A DNA stretch of 64,000 nt from Octopus vulgaris. Lineage: Eukaryota. The notes below the pieces were generated by a model. It worked only from the letters and a program-made list of their open reading frames with translations. It was not told where the DNA came from and ran no database searches. This document shows positions 34,623 to 62,573 of this stretch, piece after piece (within the stretch, counting starts at the first letter, position 1; each line of letters starts with the position of its first letter). Position numbers and translations under genes: made by a program. The stretch lies in contig OX597832.1 of NCBI GenBank assembly GCA_951406725.2, positions 51,832,001 through 51,896,000 on the forward strand, given 5' to 3'.

Positions 34623-34739
34623 ATGGTATTGTTGTTACGTTACTGCTGCACGCTGATCTCTCGGGTCTCTTTCTTCGTGTGCATTCTTTGCACTGCTTTT
34701 AGACTGAACGTTGTCATTTCTCACGCCGAAAGCAATAAC
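34623..34739 (+). CDS. TP53I3: Candidate upstream coding exon of the PIG3-like gene (signal-peptide-like leader)
   Basis: ATG..AAC = 117 nt (MVLLLRYCCTLISRVSFFVCILCTAFRLNVVISHAESNN), followed by a consensus donor GTAAGT at 34740. Phase 0 matches the phase-0 acceptor at 45535. It lies in unique, CpG-richer sequence. A pyrimidine-rich tract and AG directly precede the ATG. No homology support. Confidence 0.6.
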
Positions 34740-34847
34740 GTAAGTACCTTGATGTATCTAATTGTCAGCCCACCTTTAATAGATAAAGAAAAAATGAAAG
34801 AAATTATGGGAAGAAGAAAAAAGAGAGAAGGGAACTTTAAACGTGCT

Positions 34848-35152
34848 ATATCTATCTATCTACCTACCTACCTCCTATCTACCTACCTACCTACCTACCT
34901 ATCTATCTTTCTATATATCAATCTATCTATCTATCTGCCTATCTATCTATCTATCTATCTATCTATCTATCTATCTATCTCTATATGTCTACCTATCTAT
35001 CTATCTATCTATCTATCTATCTATCTATCTATCTATCTATCTATCTATCTATCTATCTATCTATCTATCTATCTATCTATCTATCTATCTATCTCTATAT
35101 CTATCTATCTATCTATCTCTATATGTCTATCTATCTATCTATCTATCTATCT
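34848..35152. repeat. (TATC)n microsatellite (also 12315-12398 and 48553-48879)
   Basis: Direct reading. Confidence 0.95.
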
Positions 35153-38100
35153 AAGTACATGACAAAGGAATATAGTGTAAAATTATCCACATTTAAAATA
35201 TCATACACACCTACACTACATACATAAGTATATATAACAAGGTGTTGAAACAAAATTGATAATAAACAAAATATAGAAACTAGTACACTCCCCTAATTAT
35301 ATATCGTACAAGGGAATACAGTTATTCTCCCCTTTAAAGCATTTTTCAGGTAAGCCGAAACCCGATATTACTGCGGATAATAACTAAACTGGTGTGCTAG
35401 AACAACCAGGAACCCTCACGTACATCTTACTATACTTTGGGTGTGTGTTTATGTGTAGCAATGTAAGATACCGTGAGCAACCGGTGAAGTCTGCTACTGT
35501 TTTAACGTATTTAGTTTCTGTTTAGCTCCAGGTCAGCTCTGGTAGGCCCATAGAGGCCCTAAGCACTTAAAAAGATTTTGGTGCTCCCATATATACGTAA
35601 TTCAAACTATAAATAATTATAAACCATACATTTTCTTTTCAGTTTTCAGAATGAAACAAAACTATGTTTATTTTTTATATAACCCCGCTTTATTTAAATT
35701 CAAAGTTTTCTCCTCACTATGACACCATGAACACTTCGAAATTATAATCTCAGAATCCATTTCAAATATAATTTCGGTATGTCTAAAGTGATTCCTTTTT
35801 TACTATAAATCATTTATCATTTCTGTGGTGCCCCTTGCTTCCCTTGAAGGCCCTAAGCACGCGCTTATTTTGATTAACGGCTAATTAAGCACGAGATATA
35901 CGAAACATATGCTGAAAGGCATTCTGATAGTGACCGACTCGTCCTTGTTTTATTACGCACACACACACTCAAATAAATAAATATATATATATATATATAT
36001 ATATATATATATATGATTCCTTTGGTGTATGTGGTTGCATTTTTATCTTATAAAGGTTCCCTACACACTAGATGTTGTTTTAGCCCCAGCGCCACCATAA
36101 TCAAGCAGATCTATGATCAAAAACATTCCGGTCGTGACCCTCCCATCATTTTTCAGATGTGTAGGAGTACCTTATTCCGTCTGGGTGTGATTAAGAGTGA
36201 TACTGATTGCTATTTCTTGCAGATCAAGTAACAACCACTTAGAGGTTCTCTCGCTGATTCTTTAAAGTACTTGACAACTTCTTGGGTAGATTTATCTTCA
36301 GCGTTCTAATCCAGCGAAGGTCAACATTGCATCCGCCCCGCTGGGGGTCGATAAAATACAATAGTCAAGTCATCAGTCTAATATATTTATAAAACACCCT
36401 GTATTTCTATAAAGAAGATTAATTCGTGGCCCATCTCCCCAATTTTGGGGTTTTGCTTCTGTGTAAGAATTTATTGTTTCCGTGTACGGAACTAAGCACT
36501 TTGGTCTGTCATATACCCTCCTCTGCCTACCGTAGAGTAGTTCCTTCCCCATTCCTCGAGCTAAGCAAGTGCTCGAAACTTAAGTACCCGACTAGGAGGA
36601 GGAGGCAGAGTAGTAATAATAATAGTAGTTGTTGTTGTTGTGCTCGACTACATCACGTACCACCAGTAGGCGAGATGATGATTTGGGCTTTGCGCTCGAC
36701 TGCTAGAAATAGCAGCCAAATTTCCTTCACCCCAACCAACCTCCGTCTTTTTTTTTTTTTTTTTTGAAGGATGCATTTAGTGCATTTAGACACGGTAACA
36801 TGGTATTACCAGCTATACCGAAGGGCGGAATGGTCAAAGCTGGAATGCCTTAGATCTGCTCAAAGATGACTTGGTGTTACACAAGCAAACAAACCACAAC
36901 CAGGCAGCCTCTACATGACCGCATGATTTATTAGAAACAGCAGCTAAACTTTTATACGGTCCTCTACCGTCTTAAATAAAACCCATAATAATAAAACACA
37001 TCGGATAATTCTGGTGTAACAGTACAGTGCTTTTGACAAGGTCCTGCAGGTTTCGCTCGATTAAACCTAAGTTAACATCAACCCGCGACAAATCGACAAT
37101 ATATGATACACTCTGGTTTCCACTGGGACCGTGTATATACATGATGTTCTGTTCAGTCGGTTCATGGGGTAATGCACCGAAAATGTTTTTTGGAAACTCT
37201 ATTAGAAATAACCTACTGTGGCCACCGAATTGAATGTTGAAGGACAGGTACATCCCTGAAAGGCAAAGTCGACCTCGGCGGAATTTGAACTCAGAACGTA
37301 ACGGTATTTCGTCTGCCGTTACGTTCTGAGTTCAAATTCCGCCGAGGTCGACTTTGTCTTTCAACCTTTCGGGGTCGATAAATTAAGGACCAGTTACGCA
37401 CTGGGGTCAGTATAATCGACTTGATCCGTTTTGTCTGTCCTTGTTTGTCCCCTCTATGTTTAGCCCCTTGTGGGTAGTAAAGAAATAGGTATGTATGGAC
37501 GAATGGATGACTGAAGGAGCGATGTTTAATTGTTAGGATGTTGCACTCTCGATCAAAAGATTGTGGTTTCGATTCCTAGATCGGGCGATGCATTGTTCAC
37601 TGTTGATGTTGAAATTCCAATGAAGGAGCCTTGGATCTAAGTTAGAAACCGGCTCAAGGCGGCGAGCTGGCAGAAGGTTTAGCACGCCGGGCGAAATGCG
37701 TAGCCGTATTTCGTCTGCCGCTACGTTGTGAGTTCAAATTCCGCCGAAGTCGACTTTGCCTTTCATCCTTTCGAGGTCGATAAATTAAGTACCAGTTACT
37801 CACTGGGGTAGATGTAATCGACTTTATCCCTTTGTCTGTCCTTGTTTGTTCCCTCTATGTTTAGCCCCTTGTGGCAATAAAGAAATATCTTTCTCTTTTG
37901 GCAAGAAATCTTGAAATAAAACTGAATAATGACACACACACACACACACGTACATGCAAACAAACAACATTAATCTATGTGAAAGGACGAAAGACTCAGC
38001 TTCAAATAAAATAAACTTTACTTCATGCATTAAGAACTTTTTTTCTCTCCTTTGTAAATGCAGACAACCTTGTTTTATATCCAAAGTCTCACTTTGTACA

Positions 38101-61102: not shown

Positions 61103-62218
61103 TTAACCCCTTGATGCCGGTGAGCTGGCAGAAACGTTAGCACACCGGGCGAAATGCTTAGCGGTATTTCGTCTGCCGTTACGTTGTGAGTTCAAATTCC
61201 GCCGAGGTCGACTTTACCTTTCATCCTTTCGGGGTCGATTAAATAAGTACCAGTTACGTACTGGGATCGATATAATCGACTTAATACCTATGTCTGTCCT
61301 TGTTTGTCCCCTCTATGTTTAGCCCCTTGTGGGTAGTAAAGAAATAGGTATTATCCGAAGCATGCGAGACACTGCTCCGTTTTTTTATCTAATGAGGCCA
61401 CGCAAACACACAAGTGCCAACGAGCTCGCGTCTTTTTACGTTCACCGTTACAATAACATAGCATCGTACATTTACGTCTACCGGTTTATGAAAACGAACT
61501 ATGTGAAGCTATTTATCATATAATAATAATAATAATAATAATGAAATTATTGTATACAGTGCTCAGGTGCACCACAACTTGTCAGAAAGTGCGTATAAAG
61601 TGTATGCAGTAATGTACAAATGTCTGGAAAGTGAACAATGTATGAGTCAGATACATGCTTGTGTGTGTATGGAGGGGAGAAAATCAGGTGTAGCATTGGC
61701 GAATCTCAGAAAGCATGGAAGTTTTGAAGGATGCAGTGCTCCGACAACTAACAACTGATGCCGGCAGTTTGTTTCATGCTTCAGCAACTCTCAGCGTGAA
61801 AAAATGTTTCCTAAAGTCATGGGAGCTGTGCTGTTTTCTGACTTTGTAAATATGTCCATGGGTGTTAGACAGGTGGAGTTTGAAAATATATGCACGAGTT
61901 ATTCTGCTCAAGTTTAAAAAATTGCTTGCGTGTGGTACAACTCAAAACACGGTATTATACATGTAAAGTACCCGCATGTCATTGGTCTACTGCTAGTCCC
62001 ATGACTTGAACGTAACCTAAAATAGCTAAGATAGTGCACGGGACAGCGAGCGCGCACACCTCAAAATAAAGTACACGATAGTGAAAGTAAACGTACGTCA
62101 GCCGCTAAAAAGTCCGTGATAGATGTAGGGCAGCTCTACATTGTATATTTACGTTAACCATGGGTAGGCAAGCAAAAGTGTGATTGCATATTTGCGTCAG
62201 TCGTTGTCAAGGGGTTAA
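61103..62218. mobile_element. piggyBac-like element with nested SINE and CR1 end
   Basis: TTAA-CCCCTTGA...TCAAGGGG-TTAA with a CpG-rich interior. Confidence 0.65.
61521..61880 (-). mobile_element. CR1/L2-like LINE 3' end (other copies 1-62(+), 13380-13632, 21215-21435)
   Basis: Family consensus FFTLRVAEAWNKLPASVV..SFK motif and an (ATT)n tail; four similar copies. Confidence 0.75.
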
Positions 62219-62321
62219 CTAATTATCATTGATTTATTTAAAAAGTTGTTGTTGTCTTTTGAAACTTCTAGCCTTATCTTAACCCTTAACCCTTGTTTTT
62301 TTTTTTTTTTTGTAATTTCAG

Positions 62322-62573
62322 TATAAAGGTCAACTCGTTGAAGCCTTCTCACAGCAAGCTTTGTCACACTTTGAAAGAGGTTATCTGAAACCTGTAATGG
62401 ACAGTGTTTTCCCTCTAGACCAGATCAGTGCCGCACATGAGAAAATGGAAGCGAACAAGAACATGGGCAAGATAATGATACGAGTTGCCAAAGACAACAC
62501 TGATGCCATCGGTGTTGTCGACAGCACCAACAACATCAACAAAGAAGAGACACAGATCAAAGCTGAATTGTAG
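62322..62573 (+). CDS. TP53I3: PIG3-like last coding exon with C-terminal extension ending KAEL*
   Basis: ttcag|YKGQLVEAFSQQALSHFERGYLKPVMDSVFPLDQISAAHEKMEANKNMGKIMIRVAKDNTDAIGVVDSTNNINKEETQIKAEL*. The spliced CDS from ATG 45544 is 1068 nt (355 aa), or 397 aa with the upstream exon. Confidence 0.95.
   Translation, partial: YKGQLVEAFSQQALSHFERGYLKPVMDSVFPLDQISAAHEKMEANKNMGKIMIRVAKDNTDAIGVVDSTNNINKEETQIKAEL

What the first reader, a model, noticed from the sequence alone, without database searches (positions are those of the whole stretch)
34623..62573. PIG3/TP53I3 quinone oxidoreductase apparently retargeted to the ER lumen (signal-like leader plus C-terminal KAEL)
Seen: a 39-codon exon with a hydrophobic core (VSFFVCILCTAF) and a perfect donor joins in phase to AAG ACA GAG upstream of the conserved Met. 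The junction creates an N-K-T sequon. The last exon extends about 25 polar residues past the end of the MDR fold and stops at KAEL. Known: human PIG3 is cytosolic, starts at the equivalent Met and has no such tail; xxEL termini such as KDEL and KTEL are ER-retrieval signals, although KAEL is outside the strict PROSITE pattern. Inference: two independent targeting signals at opposite ends point to a luminal NADPH-dependent quinone reductase, which would need luminal NADPH (e.g. from H6PD).
Basis: partly seen in the sequence, partly recalled or inferred. Interest (0 to 1): 0.8.

Follow-up and report, generated by a model that had tools for sequence, protein, structure and literature searches.

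The report
Invertebrate PIG3 carries ER-lumen address labels
The octopus version of the p53-induced enzyme PIG3 has a spliced hydrophobic leader and a KDEL-type tail; every invertebrate relative among the closest named hits has such a tail and most have such a leader, so the enzyme likely works inside the endoplasmic reticulum, an address that vertebrates likely lost.

Summary
Eight AG/GT exons give a 397-aa PIG3 ending in KAEL. Probable RNA contigs from three studies join 34739 to 45535; a DNA-like run reads through.

'Retargeted' is likely backwards. An xxEL end is on 28 of 28 named invertebrate PIG3 rows (8 phyla) but 1 of 62 vertebrate rows; K, H or R sits at -4 in 27 of 28. Hydrophobic leaders occur in 24 of 28 counting isoforms, and in 0 of 16 vertebrate extensions. 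A choanoflagellate relative ends in REDL. KAEL is the end of human ER-resident MSRB3.

Mussel, snail, scallop and starfish genes put alternative N-termini (hydrophobic, basic, or neither) on one xxEL body, the MSRB3 plan. In octopus an out-of-frame upstream AUG could send ribosomes to Met43, giving a cytosolic form.

Best reading: an ancestral ER-luminal NADPH-dependent reductase with leaderless sister forms, lost in vertebrates. Localisation, cleavage, substrate and luminal NADPH supply are untested; no signal-peptide predictor was available, and the gene tree alone cannot set the direction. Four literature searches found no report of it.

The parts
34541..34622 (+). 5' untranslated part of exon 1 (at least this long); the acceptor-like AG just before the start codon is not used in these contigs
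   Evidence: Contigs of 3 runs begin at 34541, 34547 and 34571 with no loose 5' end
34591..34656 (+). Out-of-frame upstream ORF of 21 codons overlapping the leader start; it ends 92 nt before Met43 on the spliced mRNA, with no AUG in between
   Evidence: no difference listed at its AUG in any of 4 runs
34623..34739 (+). Coding exon 1: 39-codon hydrophobic leader, predicted signal peptide or signal anchor
   Evidence: 36 of 42 leader residues identical in O. bimaculoides
45535..45681 (+). Exon 2: three linker codons, Met43 (human Met1 equivalent) and start of the MDR catalytic domain
46964..47099 (+). Exon 3
   Evidence: AG/GT, in frame; matches O. sinensis XP_036367017.1
48996..49127 (+). Exon 4
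55941..56153 (+). Exon 5: nucleotide-binding glycine motif of the Rossmann fold
58288..58392 (+). Exon 6
60059..60150 (+). Exon 7
62322..62573 (+). Exon 8 coding part: end of the fold, polar tail of about 28 residues, KAEL and stop
   Evidence: low-confidence tail in the Argonauta model
62773..62778 (+). First AATAAA after the stop, candidate polyadenylation signal
   Evidence: contig lengths of 1315-1442 fit an mRNA ending before or near it (inference)

Best explanation
This gene is the octopus PIG3/TP53I3 orthologue with a spliced hydrophobic leader and a KAEL end; the leader is predicted to carry the enzyme into the ER lumen, where the KDEL receptor would retain it as a likely NADPH-dependent quinone or enone reductase, an arrangement likely ancestral in animals and likely lost in vertebrates. 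Shown: gene structure, splicing of the leader, family membership, conserved catalytic-domain residues, and the distribution of both signals. Inferred: SRP-type import (cleavage after Ala35 fits the small-residue -3/-1 rule, recalled; an uncleaved type II anchor would also put the domain in the lumen), retrieval by KAEL, use of luminal NADPH, and substrate. The gene likely also yields a leaderless cytosolic form from Met43, by reinitiation or leaky scanning or from another first exon. Other molluscs likely add a mitochondrial form from an Arg-rich first exon.
For: Junction spliced in 3 of 3 probable RNA runs laid. xxEL in 28 of 28 named invertebrate rows against 1 of 62 vertebrate rows. Of 29 unnamed rows placed in the tree, 0 of 14 inside the vertebrate clade end in EL, and 12 of 15 outside do, plus one TDL. 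K, H or R at -4 in 27 of 28, free -3 position, 15 different tetrapeptides on tails of 7-31 residues that are 33% acidic: selection on a receptor-type motif, not on a fixed sequence. Leader score of 1.9 or more in 18 of 28 rows as listed (18 of 23 that have an extension, against a 37% null, binomial p 6e-5, rows not independent), 24 of 28 with isoforms, 0 of 16 vertebrate extensions. Barroeca ends in REDL, Macrostomum in RQEL; unnamed P0337 has a hydrophobic leader plus HAEL. KAEL is the end of ER-localised human MSRB3 (PMC2140024, PMC7475093). No hydrophobic 19-residue stretch in the body (maximum 1.38). TIGR02824 373 bits over a cut-off of 296.8; Argonauta model 1.3 A rmsd to human PIG3.
Against: No signal-peptide predictor and no localisation data. 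The octopus leader is long (42 aa), has 3 Arg and no acidic residue before position 36, with a hydrophobic moment of 0.39, so a mitochondrial or mixed reading is open. An overlapping upstream AUG in a better -3 context, and T at -3 of the leader AUG, would lower leader translation. O. sinensis isoform X2 starts at Met43 and the O. vulgaris model is shorter still. A second allele type shows 3 residue-changing and 1 silent difference in the leader, so no sign of purifying selection at that depth. MSRB3 stays in the ER without its KAEL (PMC2140024, PMC7475093). The gene tree rejects neither vertebrates nested in deuterostomes (p-AU 0.31) nor all invertebrates as one clade (p-AU 0.72, and that tree scored 12 log units higher). 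Three named invertebrate rows (Pinctada 856 aa, Anneissia 777 and 789 aa, all fused forms) and unnamed P0129 do not end in xxEL. Two searches gave nothing on H6PD in invertebrates beyond a reference-list mention.
Confidence: 0.68

Rival explanations
1. The protein is made almost only from Met43 and is cytosolic in octopus; the leader is seldom translated and the tail is idle there.
For: Overlapping upstream ORF and weak -3 context at the leader AUG, better context at Met43; annotated leaderless isoform X2; no depletion of differences in the leader exon against its flanks in run X16.
Against: The leader frame stays open and in phase in three octopods, with length and hydrophobic core kept in O. 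bimaculoides. The tails diverge in length yet all end in K-x-E-L, which is hard to keep without luminal use.
Confidence: 0.12
2. The octopus leader is a mitochondrial or mixed ER/mitochondrial signal, so the long form is mainly mitochondrial.
For: Arg at 6, 14 and 27 and no acidic residue before 36; Arg-rich, weakly hydrophobic leaders exist on Mytilus, Gigantopelta and Pecten isoforms and on several teleost PIG3s.
Against: The 10-residue hydrophobicity of 2.7 falls with the signal-like Mytilus leaders (2.3-2.6), not the Arg-rich ones (0.6-1.05); the Argonauta leader is modelled with a 23-residue helix over its hydrophobic core.
Confidence: 0.1
3. ER targeting is real but vertebrate PIG3 is an old cytosolic paralogue, not a descendant that lost the signals (touches only the evolutionary claim).
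For: The tree with all invertebrates held together is not rejected and scored higher than the free quick tree.
Against: No named invertebrate shows a separate plain cytosolic copy among the 120 rows; amphioxus grouped with vertebrates in the free tree (support 69, weak); the choanoflagellate relative ends in REDL.
Confidence: 0.15
4. An octopus- or cephalopod-specific retargeting of a cytosolic enzyme, as the finding's title implies.
For: Octopods have the longest tails (25-31 residues against 7-14) and share the N-K-T junction.
Against: xxEL on 28 of 28 named invertebrate rows from 8 phyla.
Confidence: 0.03

Closest known systems
Human PIG3/TP53I3 (PDB 2J8Z, 2OBY; TIGR02824)
   Same: E 3e-120 over residues 1-327; 1.2-1.3 A rmsd and 57% identity for the Argonauta model; N40, A42, Y51, E123, T127, S151, G173, K177 invariant in 25 of 25 aligned rows (rabbit numbering). 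It shows NADPH-dependent reductase activity with ortho-quinones (PMC6272089, passage).
   Different: Human starts at the Met43 equivalent and ends with the fold: no leader, no xxEL. Three positions split invertebrates from vertebrates (T44L, V124A, T265L; 24, 27 and 26 of 27 against 50, 58 and 57 of 62). That these lie by the substrate pocket, and that human PIG3 is cytosolic, is recalled; the structure paper was not held.
Mammalian MSRB3
   Same: Redox enzyme ending in KAEL, with splice variants for the ER (signal peptide) and for mitochondria (PMC7475093, passages). Mollusc PIG3 genes show the same plan of alternative N-termini on one tail.
   Different: Unrelated fold, thiol-based chemistry; its targeting is shown by experiment, here it is predicted.
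Luminal NADPH system of mammals (H6PD with 11-beta-HSD1, Ncb5or)
   Same: A reductase would draw on the separate luminal NADP(H) pool (PMC9114485, PMC11204020, passages).
   Different: Those consumers are not MDR enzymes with a KDEL-type tail; H6PD in octopus was not tested.

Membership tests
PIG3-family MDR quinone oxidoreductase | Scores above the curated cut-off of TIGR02824 | tested here: met
   373.2 bits against 296.8 for P0001, which is 354 of 355 identical to the window's body
PIG3-family MDR quinone oxidoreductase | Two-domain MDR fold closest to human PIG3 | tested here: met
   Argonauta model: top Foldseek hits 2OBY and 2J8Z, rmsd 1.2-1.3 A
PIG3-family MDR quinone oxidoreductase | Conserved NADP-binding and active-site positions | tested here: met
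   N40, A42, Y51, E123, T127, S151, G173, K177, Y192 kept; L265 is T. Their roles are recalled, not read.
PIG3-family MDR quinone oxidoreductase | NADPH-dependent ortho-quinone reduction | not testable with these tools
   Needs an assay
KDEL-receptor-retained ER luminal proteins | KDEL-like motif at the extreme C-terminus | tested here: met
   KAEL then stop; KAEL on ER-localised MSRB3, and -3 position free except proline (PMC2140024, section 7 and table passage)
KDEL-receptor-retained ER luminal proteins | Strict Prosite pattern [KRHQSA]-[DENQ]-E-L | tested here: not met
   KAEL fails; 16 of 28 invertebrate rows pass. PMC2140024 found 35 of 46 efficient motifs outside the pattern, so it is not defining.
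KDEL-receptor-retained ER luminal proteins | N-terminal ER signal sequence | tested here: inconclusive
   Spliced, conserved, hydrophobic leader, but 5.4% of random window frames score as high and no predictor was available
KDEL-receptor-retained ER luminal proteins | No stop-transfer segment between signal and tail | tested here: met
   Highest 19-residue hydropathy in the body is 1.38
KDEL-receptor-retained ER luminal proteins | Observed ER residence | not testable with these tools
   Needs imaging or fractionation
MSRB3-type multi-compartment genes | Alternative N-termini on one xxEL-ended body | tested here: inconclusive
   Seen in annotated isoforms of four Mytilus species, Gigantopelta, Pecten and Patiria; in octopus only a leaderless annotated isoform, its 5' exon unknown; compartments inferred from composition

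The most novel reading that the evidence does not exclude
The ancestral animal, and perhaps pre-animal, PIG3 was a soluble NADPH-consuming reductase of the ER lumen, sent by alternative first exons and start codons also to mitochondria and cytosol. Vertebrates lost the ER address together with three residues near the active site, so the p53-linked cytosolic enzyme is a derived remnant. Invertebrates would then hold an unrecognised luminal NADPH pathway for quinones or enones.
Probability: 0.5. Interest if true: 0.75.

Novelty: new variant of a known kind. Interest (0 to 1): 0.6.

Why it matters
Few consumers of ER-luminal NADPH are known. One review says it is unknown whether NADPH-using reductases exist in the lumen (said in the context of protein folding; PMC9114485), and another that luminal NADPH aids antioxidant defence by an unknown mechanism (PMC11204020). 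A KDEL-retained PIG3 across invertebrates would be a concrete, testable candidate. It would also reverse the assumed history of a well-studied p53 target whose natural substrate is, as I recall, unknown, and point the search to luminal substrates. Limits: both parts (enzyme family, targeting signals) are known, the open question was posed for mammals, which lack this form, and nothing is shown at the bench.

Tried and rejected
No whole genome is held, so no search for paralogues, H6PD or the KDEL receptor in this organism. The run search listed no holder on record as RNA; splicing is the evidence instead. Only 34380-34840 was laid, so other first exons joined to exon 2 could not be seen. The idea that exon 1 is an internal exon spliced at the AG before its ATG was rejected: contigs run 52-82 bases upstream with no loose end. 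A C-terminal search with amphioxus to reach lampreys, sharks, tunicates, sponges and arthropods gave only 13 proteins, none of those groups. The 104-row careful tree did not finish; the quick tree was used, with P0002, P0125 and P0126 left out. Core sequons in invertebrates match expectation (1.15 against 1.14 per protein): no signal. The first leader count (23 of 28) mis-anchored Tubulanus; one search gives 24. The Fisher p is not used, since rows are related. Literature searches for PIG3 with KDEL, signal peptide, ER or evolution gave 0, 0, 27 (20 listed, none relevant by title and abstract start) and 1 unrelated paper. The PIG3 structure paper was not held and a residue search found nothing. 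H6PD in invertebrates: nothing usable. Three look-ups in earlier findings were empty.
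Full report
Gene and organism. The + strand carries eight exons from 34623 to 62573, all with AG/GT ends and in phase, encoding 397 aa. From Met43 on, the protein is 354 of 355 identical to Octopus sinensis PIG3 isoform X2 (XP_036367017.1); the one differing residue matches the O. vulgaris model CAI9736980.1. 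It scores 373 bits on TIGR02824 (cut-off 296.8) and aligns to human PIG3 over residues 1-327 at E 3e-120. A model of the Argonauta orthologue overlays human PIG3 at 1.3 A, with the leader and tail outside the fold.

The leader is transcribed and spliced. I laid four runs on 34380-34840. In three probable RNA runs from three studies, one contig each matched exon 1 to exactly 34739 and went on with 30 letters identical to the start of exon 2. The fourth run read through as genomic DNA. The contigs begin at 34541, 34547 and 34571 without loose ends, so this is likely the first exon, and the AG before the ATG is not used as an acceptor in them. Contig lengths (1315-1442) fit a whole mRNA, but only 30 letters beyond the junction were shown.

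Is it more than chance? Hydrophobicity alone is weak: 5.4% of 353 ATG-started open frames in this AT-rich window score as high as the leader. Conservation decides it. O. bimaculoides has the same 42-residue leader (36 identical; core 232 of 238) and ends in KTEL; Argonauta has a divergent hydrophobic leader, the same N-K-T and KSEL.

The pattern is pan-invertebrate. Of the 120 best rows of 5218 hits to the Argonauta protein, 28 are named invertebrates, 62 named vertebrates and 30 unnamed. All 28 invertebrates (molluscs, annelids, nemerteans, a bryozoan, cnidarians, hemichordates, echinoderms, amphioxus) end in xxEL: KDEL 6, KSEL, KAEL and RDEL 3 each, KTEL and HDEL 2 each, and nine others. One of 62 vertebrates does (Alosa, SEEL). 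The -4 residue is K, H or R in 27 of 28, while -3 varies and the tail runs 7-31 residues. This matches the reported receptor rules (PMC2140024). Of 29 unnamed rows placed in a core-only tree, none of 14 in the vertebrate clade ends in EL, and 12 of 15 outside do. Hydrophobic leaders (10-residue score 1.9 or more) are on 18 of 28 rows as listed and 24 of 28 once isoforms are added (isoforms were looked up for only some species), against 0 of 16 vertebrate extensions. Among 149 further representatives, 9 end in EL or DL, including the choanoflagellate Barroeca (REDL, no leader in its model) and Macrostomum (RQEL). Caveats: the query itself ends in KSEL, only top rows were seen, rows are related, and arthropods, nematodes, tunicates, sponges, cyclostomes and sharks were not among the named hits. 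Exceptions: three fused invertebrate forms, unnamed P0129, and Patella isoforms with other ends.

Several addresses from one gene. Annotated isoforms put different N-termini on the same xxEL body: in four Mytilus species a hydrophobic 24-mer (score 2.3-2.6) or an Arg-rich 24-mer (0.6-1.2); in Gigantopelta a hydrophobic or a basic one; in Pecten those two or none; in Patiria a hydrophobic or a polar one. This is the plan of mammalian MSRB3, which ends in KAEL and has ER and mitochondrial splice forms (PMC7475093). Several teleosts carry a basic, non-hydrophobic extension without xxEL. In octopus, an out-of-frame AUG at 34591 (G at -3) opens 21 codons that overlap the leader AUG (T at -3) and stop 92 nt before Met43 (G at -3), with no AUG between. 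Ribosomes starting there would skip the leader and could restart at Met43. That is inference from general translation rules (recalled), and it also counts against heavy use of the leader.

Direction of change. Vertebrates form one clade (support 99); deeper branches are unresolved. The gene tree rejects neither nesting of vertebrates in deuterostomes (p-AU 0.31) nor all invertebrates together (0.72). The loss reading therefore rests on the accepted species tree: cnidarians, protostomes, ambulacrarians and amphioxus all carry the tail. Old paralogy is not excluded. Three core positions switch on the vertebrate side (T44L, V124A, T265L), next to residues I recall as lining the substrate pocket.

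Mechanism. Most likely (0.68) the leader directs co-translational import, is cut near Ala35 or stays as a type II anchor, and the catalytic domain folds in the lumen and is retrieved through KAEL. There it would use luminal NADPH to reduce quinones or enones. NADP(H) pools are thought to be made and used locally, with H6PD as the ER source in mammals (PMC9114485, PMC11204020); whether octopus has H6PD was not tested. Against: no predictor run, an Arg-bearing leader, the upstream ORF, 3 residue-changing to 1 silent difference in a second allele type, and MSRB3's ER stay without KAEL.

Papers seen. PMC2140024: passages and sections 7 and 8; its Figure 3 values and supplements were not seen, so the exact efficiency of AKAEL is unknown to me. 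PMC7475093, PMC9114485, PMC11204020, PMC6272089: passages. PMC7251785: one reference-list passage. Porte et al. 2009: nothing (recalled). Searches found no report of ER-type signals on invertebrate PIG3; subscription papers are not covered, and automatic database annotations of signal peptides were not checked.

Verdict. A real feature and a new variant of a known kind: known enzyme, known address system, apparently unreported combination across invertebrates. Interest 0.6.

Noticed in passing
window 40675-41649 (+): Mariner/Mos1-type transposase remnant inside intron 1, in two open frames split by a stop (Pfam HTH_48 and Transposase_1).
   Followed up: partly
window 27699-30556 (-): Broken non-LTR retrotransposon upstream of the gene (Pfam RVT_1 and a weak zf-RVT).
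   Followed up: partly
P0022, P0005 (Anneissia), P0246, P0266: PIG3 domains fused behind an ALS2CR8/CARF-like domain (Pfam PF15299; for P0005, P0022, P0266; P0246 resembles P0005 by eye). P0266 still ends in HSDL. Real fusions or merged gene models: unknown.
   Followed up: partly
P0062, P0092, P0095, P0113, P0240: Several teleost PIG3s have a 22-30 residue basic, non-hydrophobic N-terminal extension, possibly a mitochondrial presequence, with no xxEL.
   Followed up: partly
P0273, P0365, P0378: Unnamed eukaryote-like PIG3 relatives with a strongly hydrophobic leader but no xxEL end, possibly secreted or organelle-targeted.
   Followed up: no
P0008, P0161, P0166, P0188, P0192, P0214, P0235: Bird and marsupial models fuse a profilin domain (PF00235) to PIG3, probably read-through from a neighbouring gene.
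   Followed up: no
P0002, P0122: The O. bimaculoides models lack exon 3 and read into intron 2, probably an assembly or annotation fault.
   Followed up: no
window 34585: All four runs read C where the window has T, six bases before the upstream AUG: a rare allele or a base error in the window.
   Followed up: no
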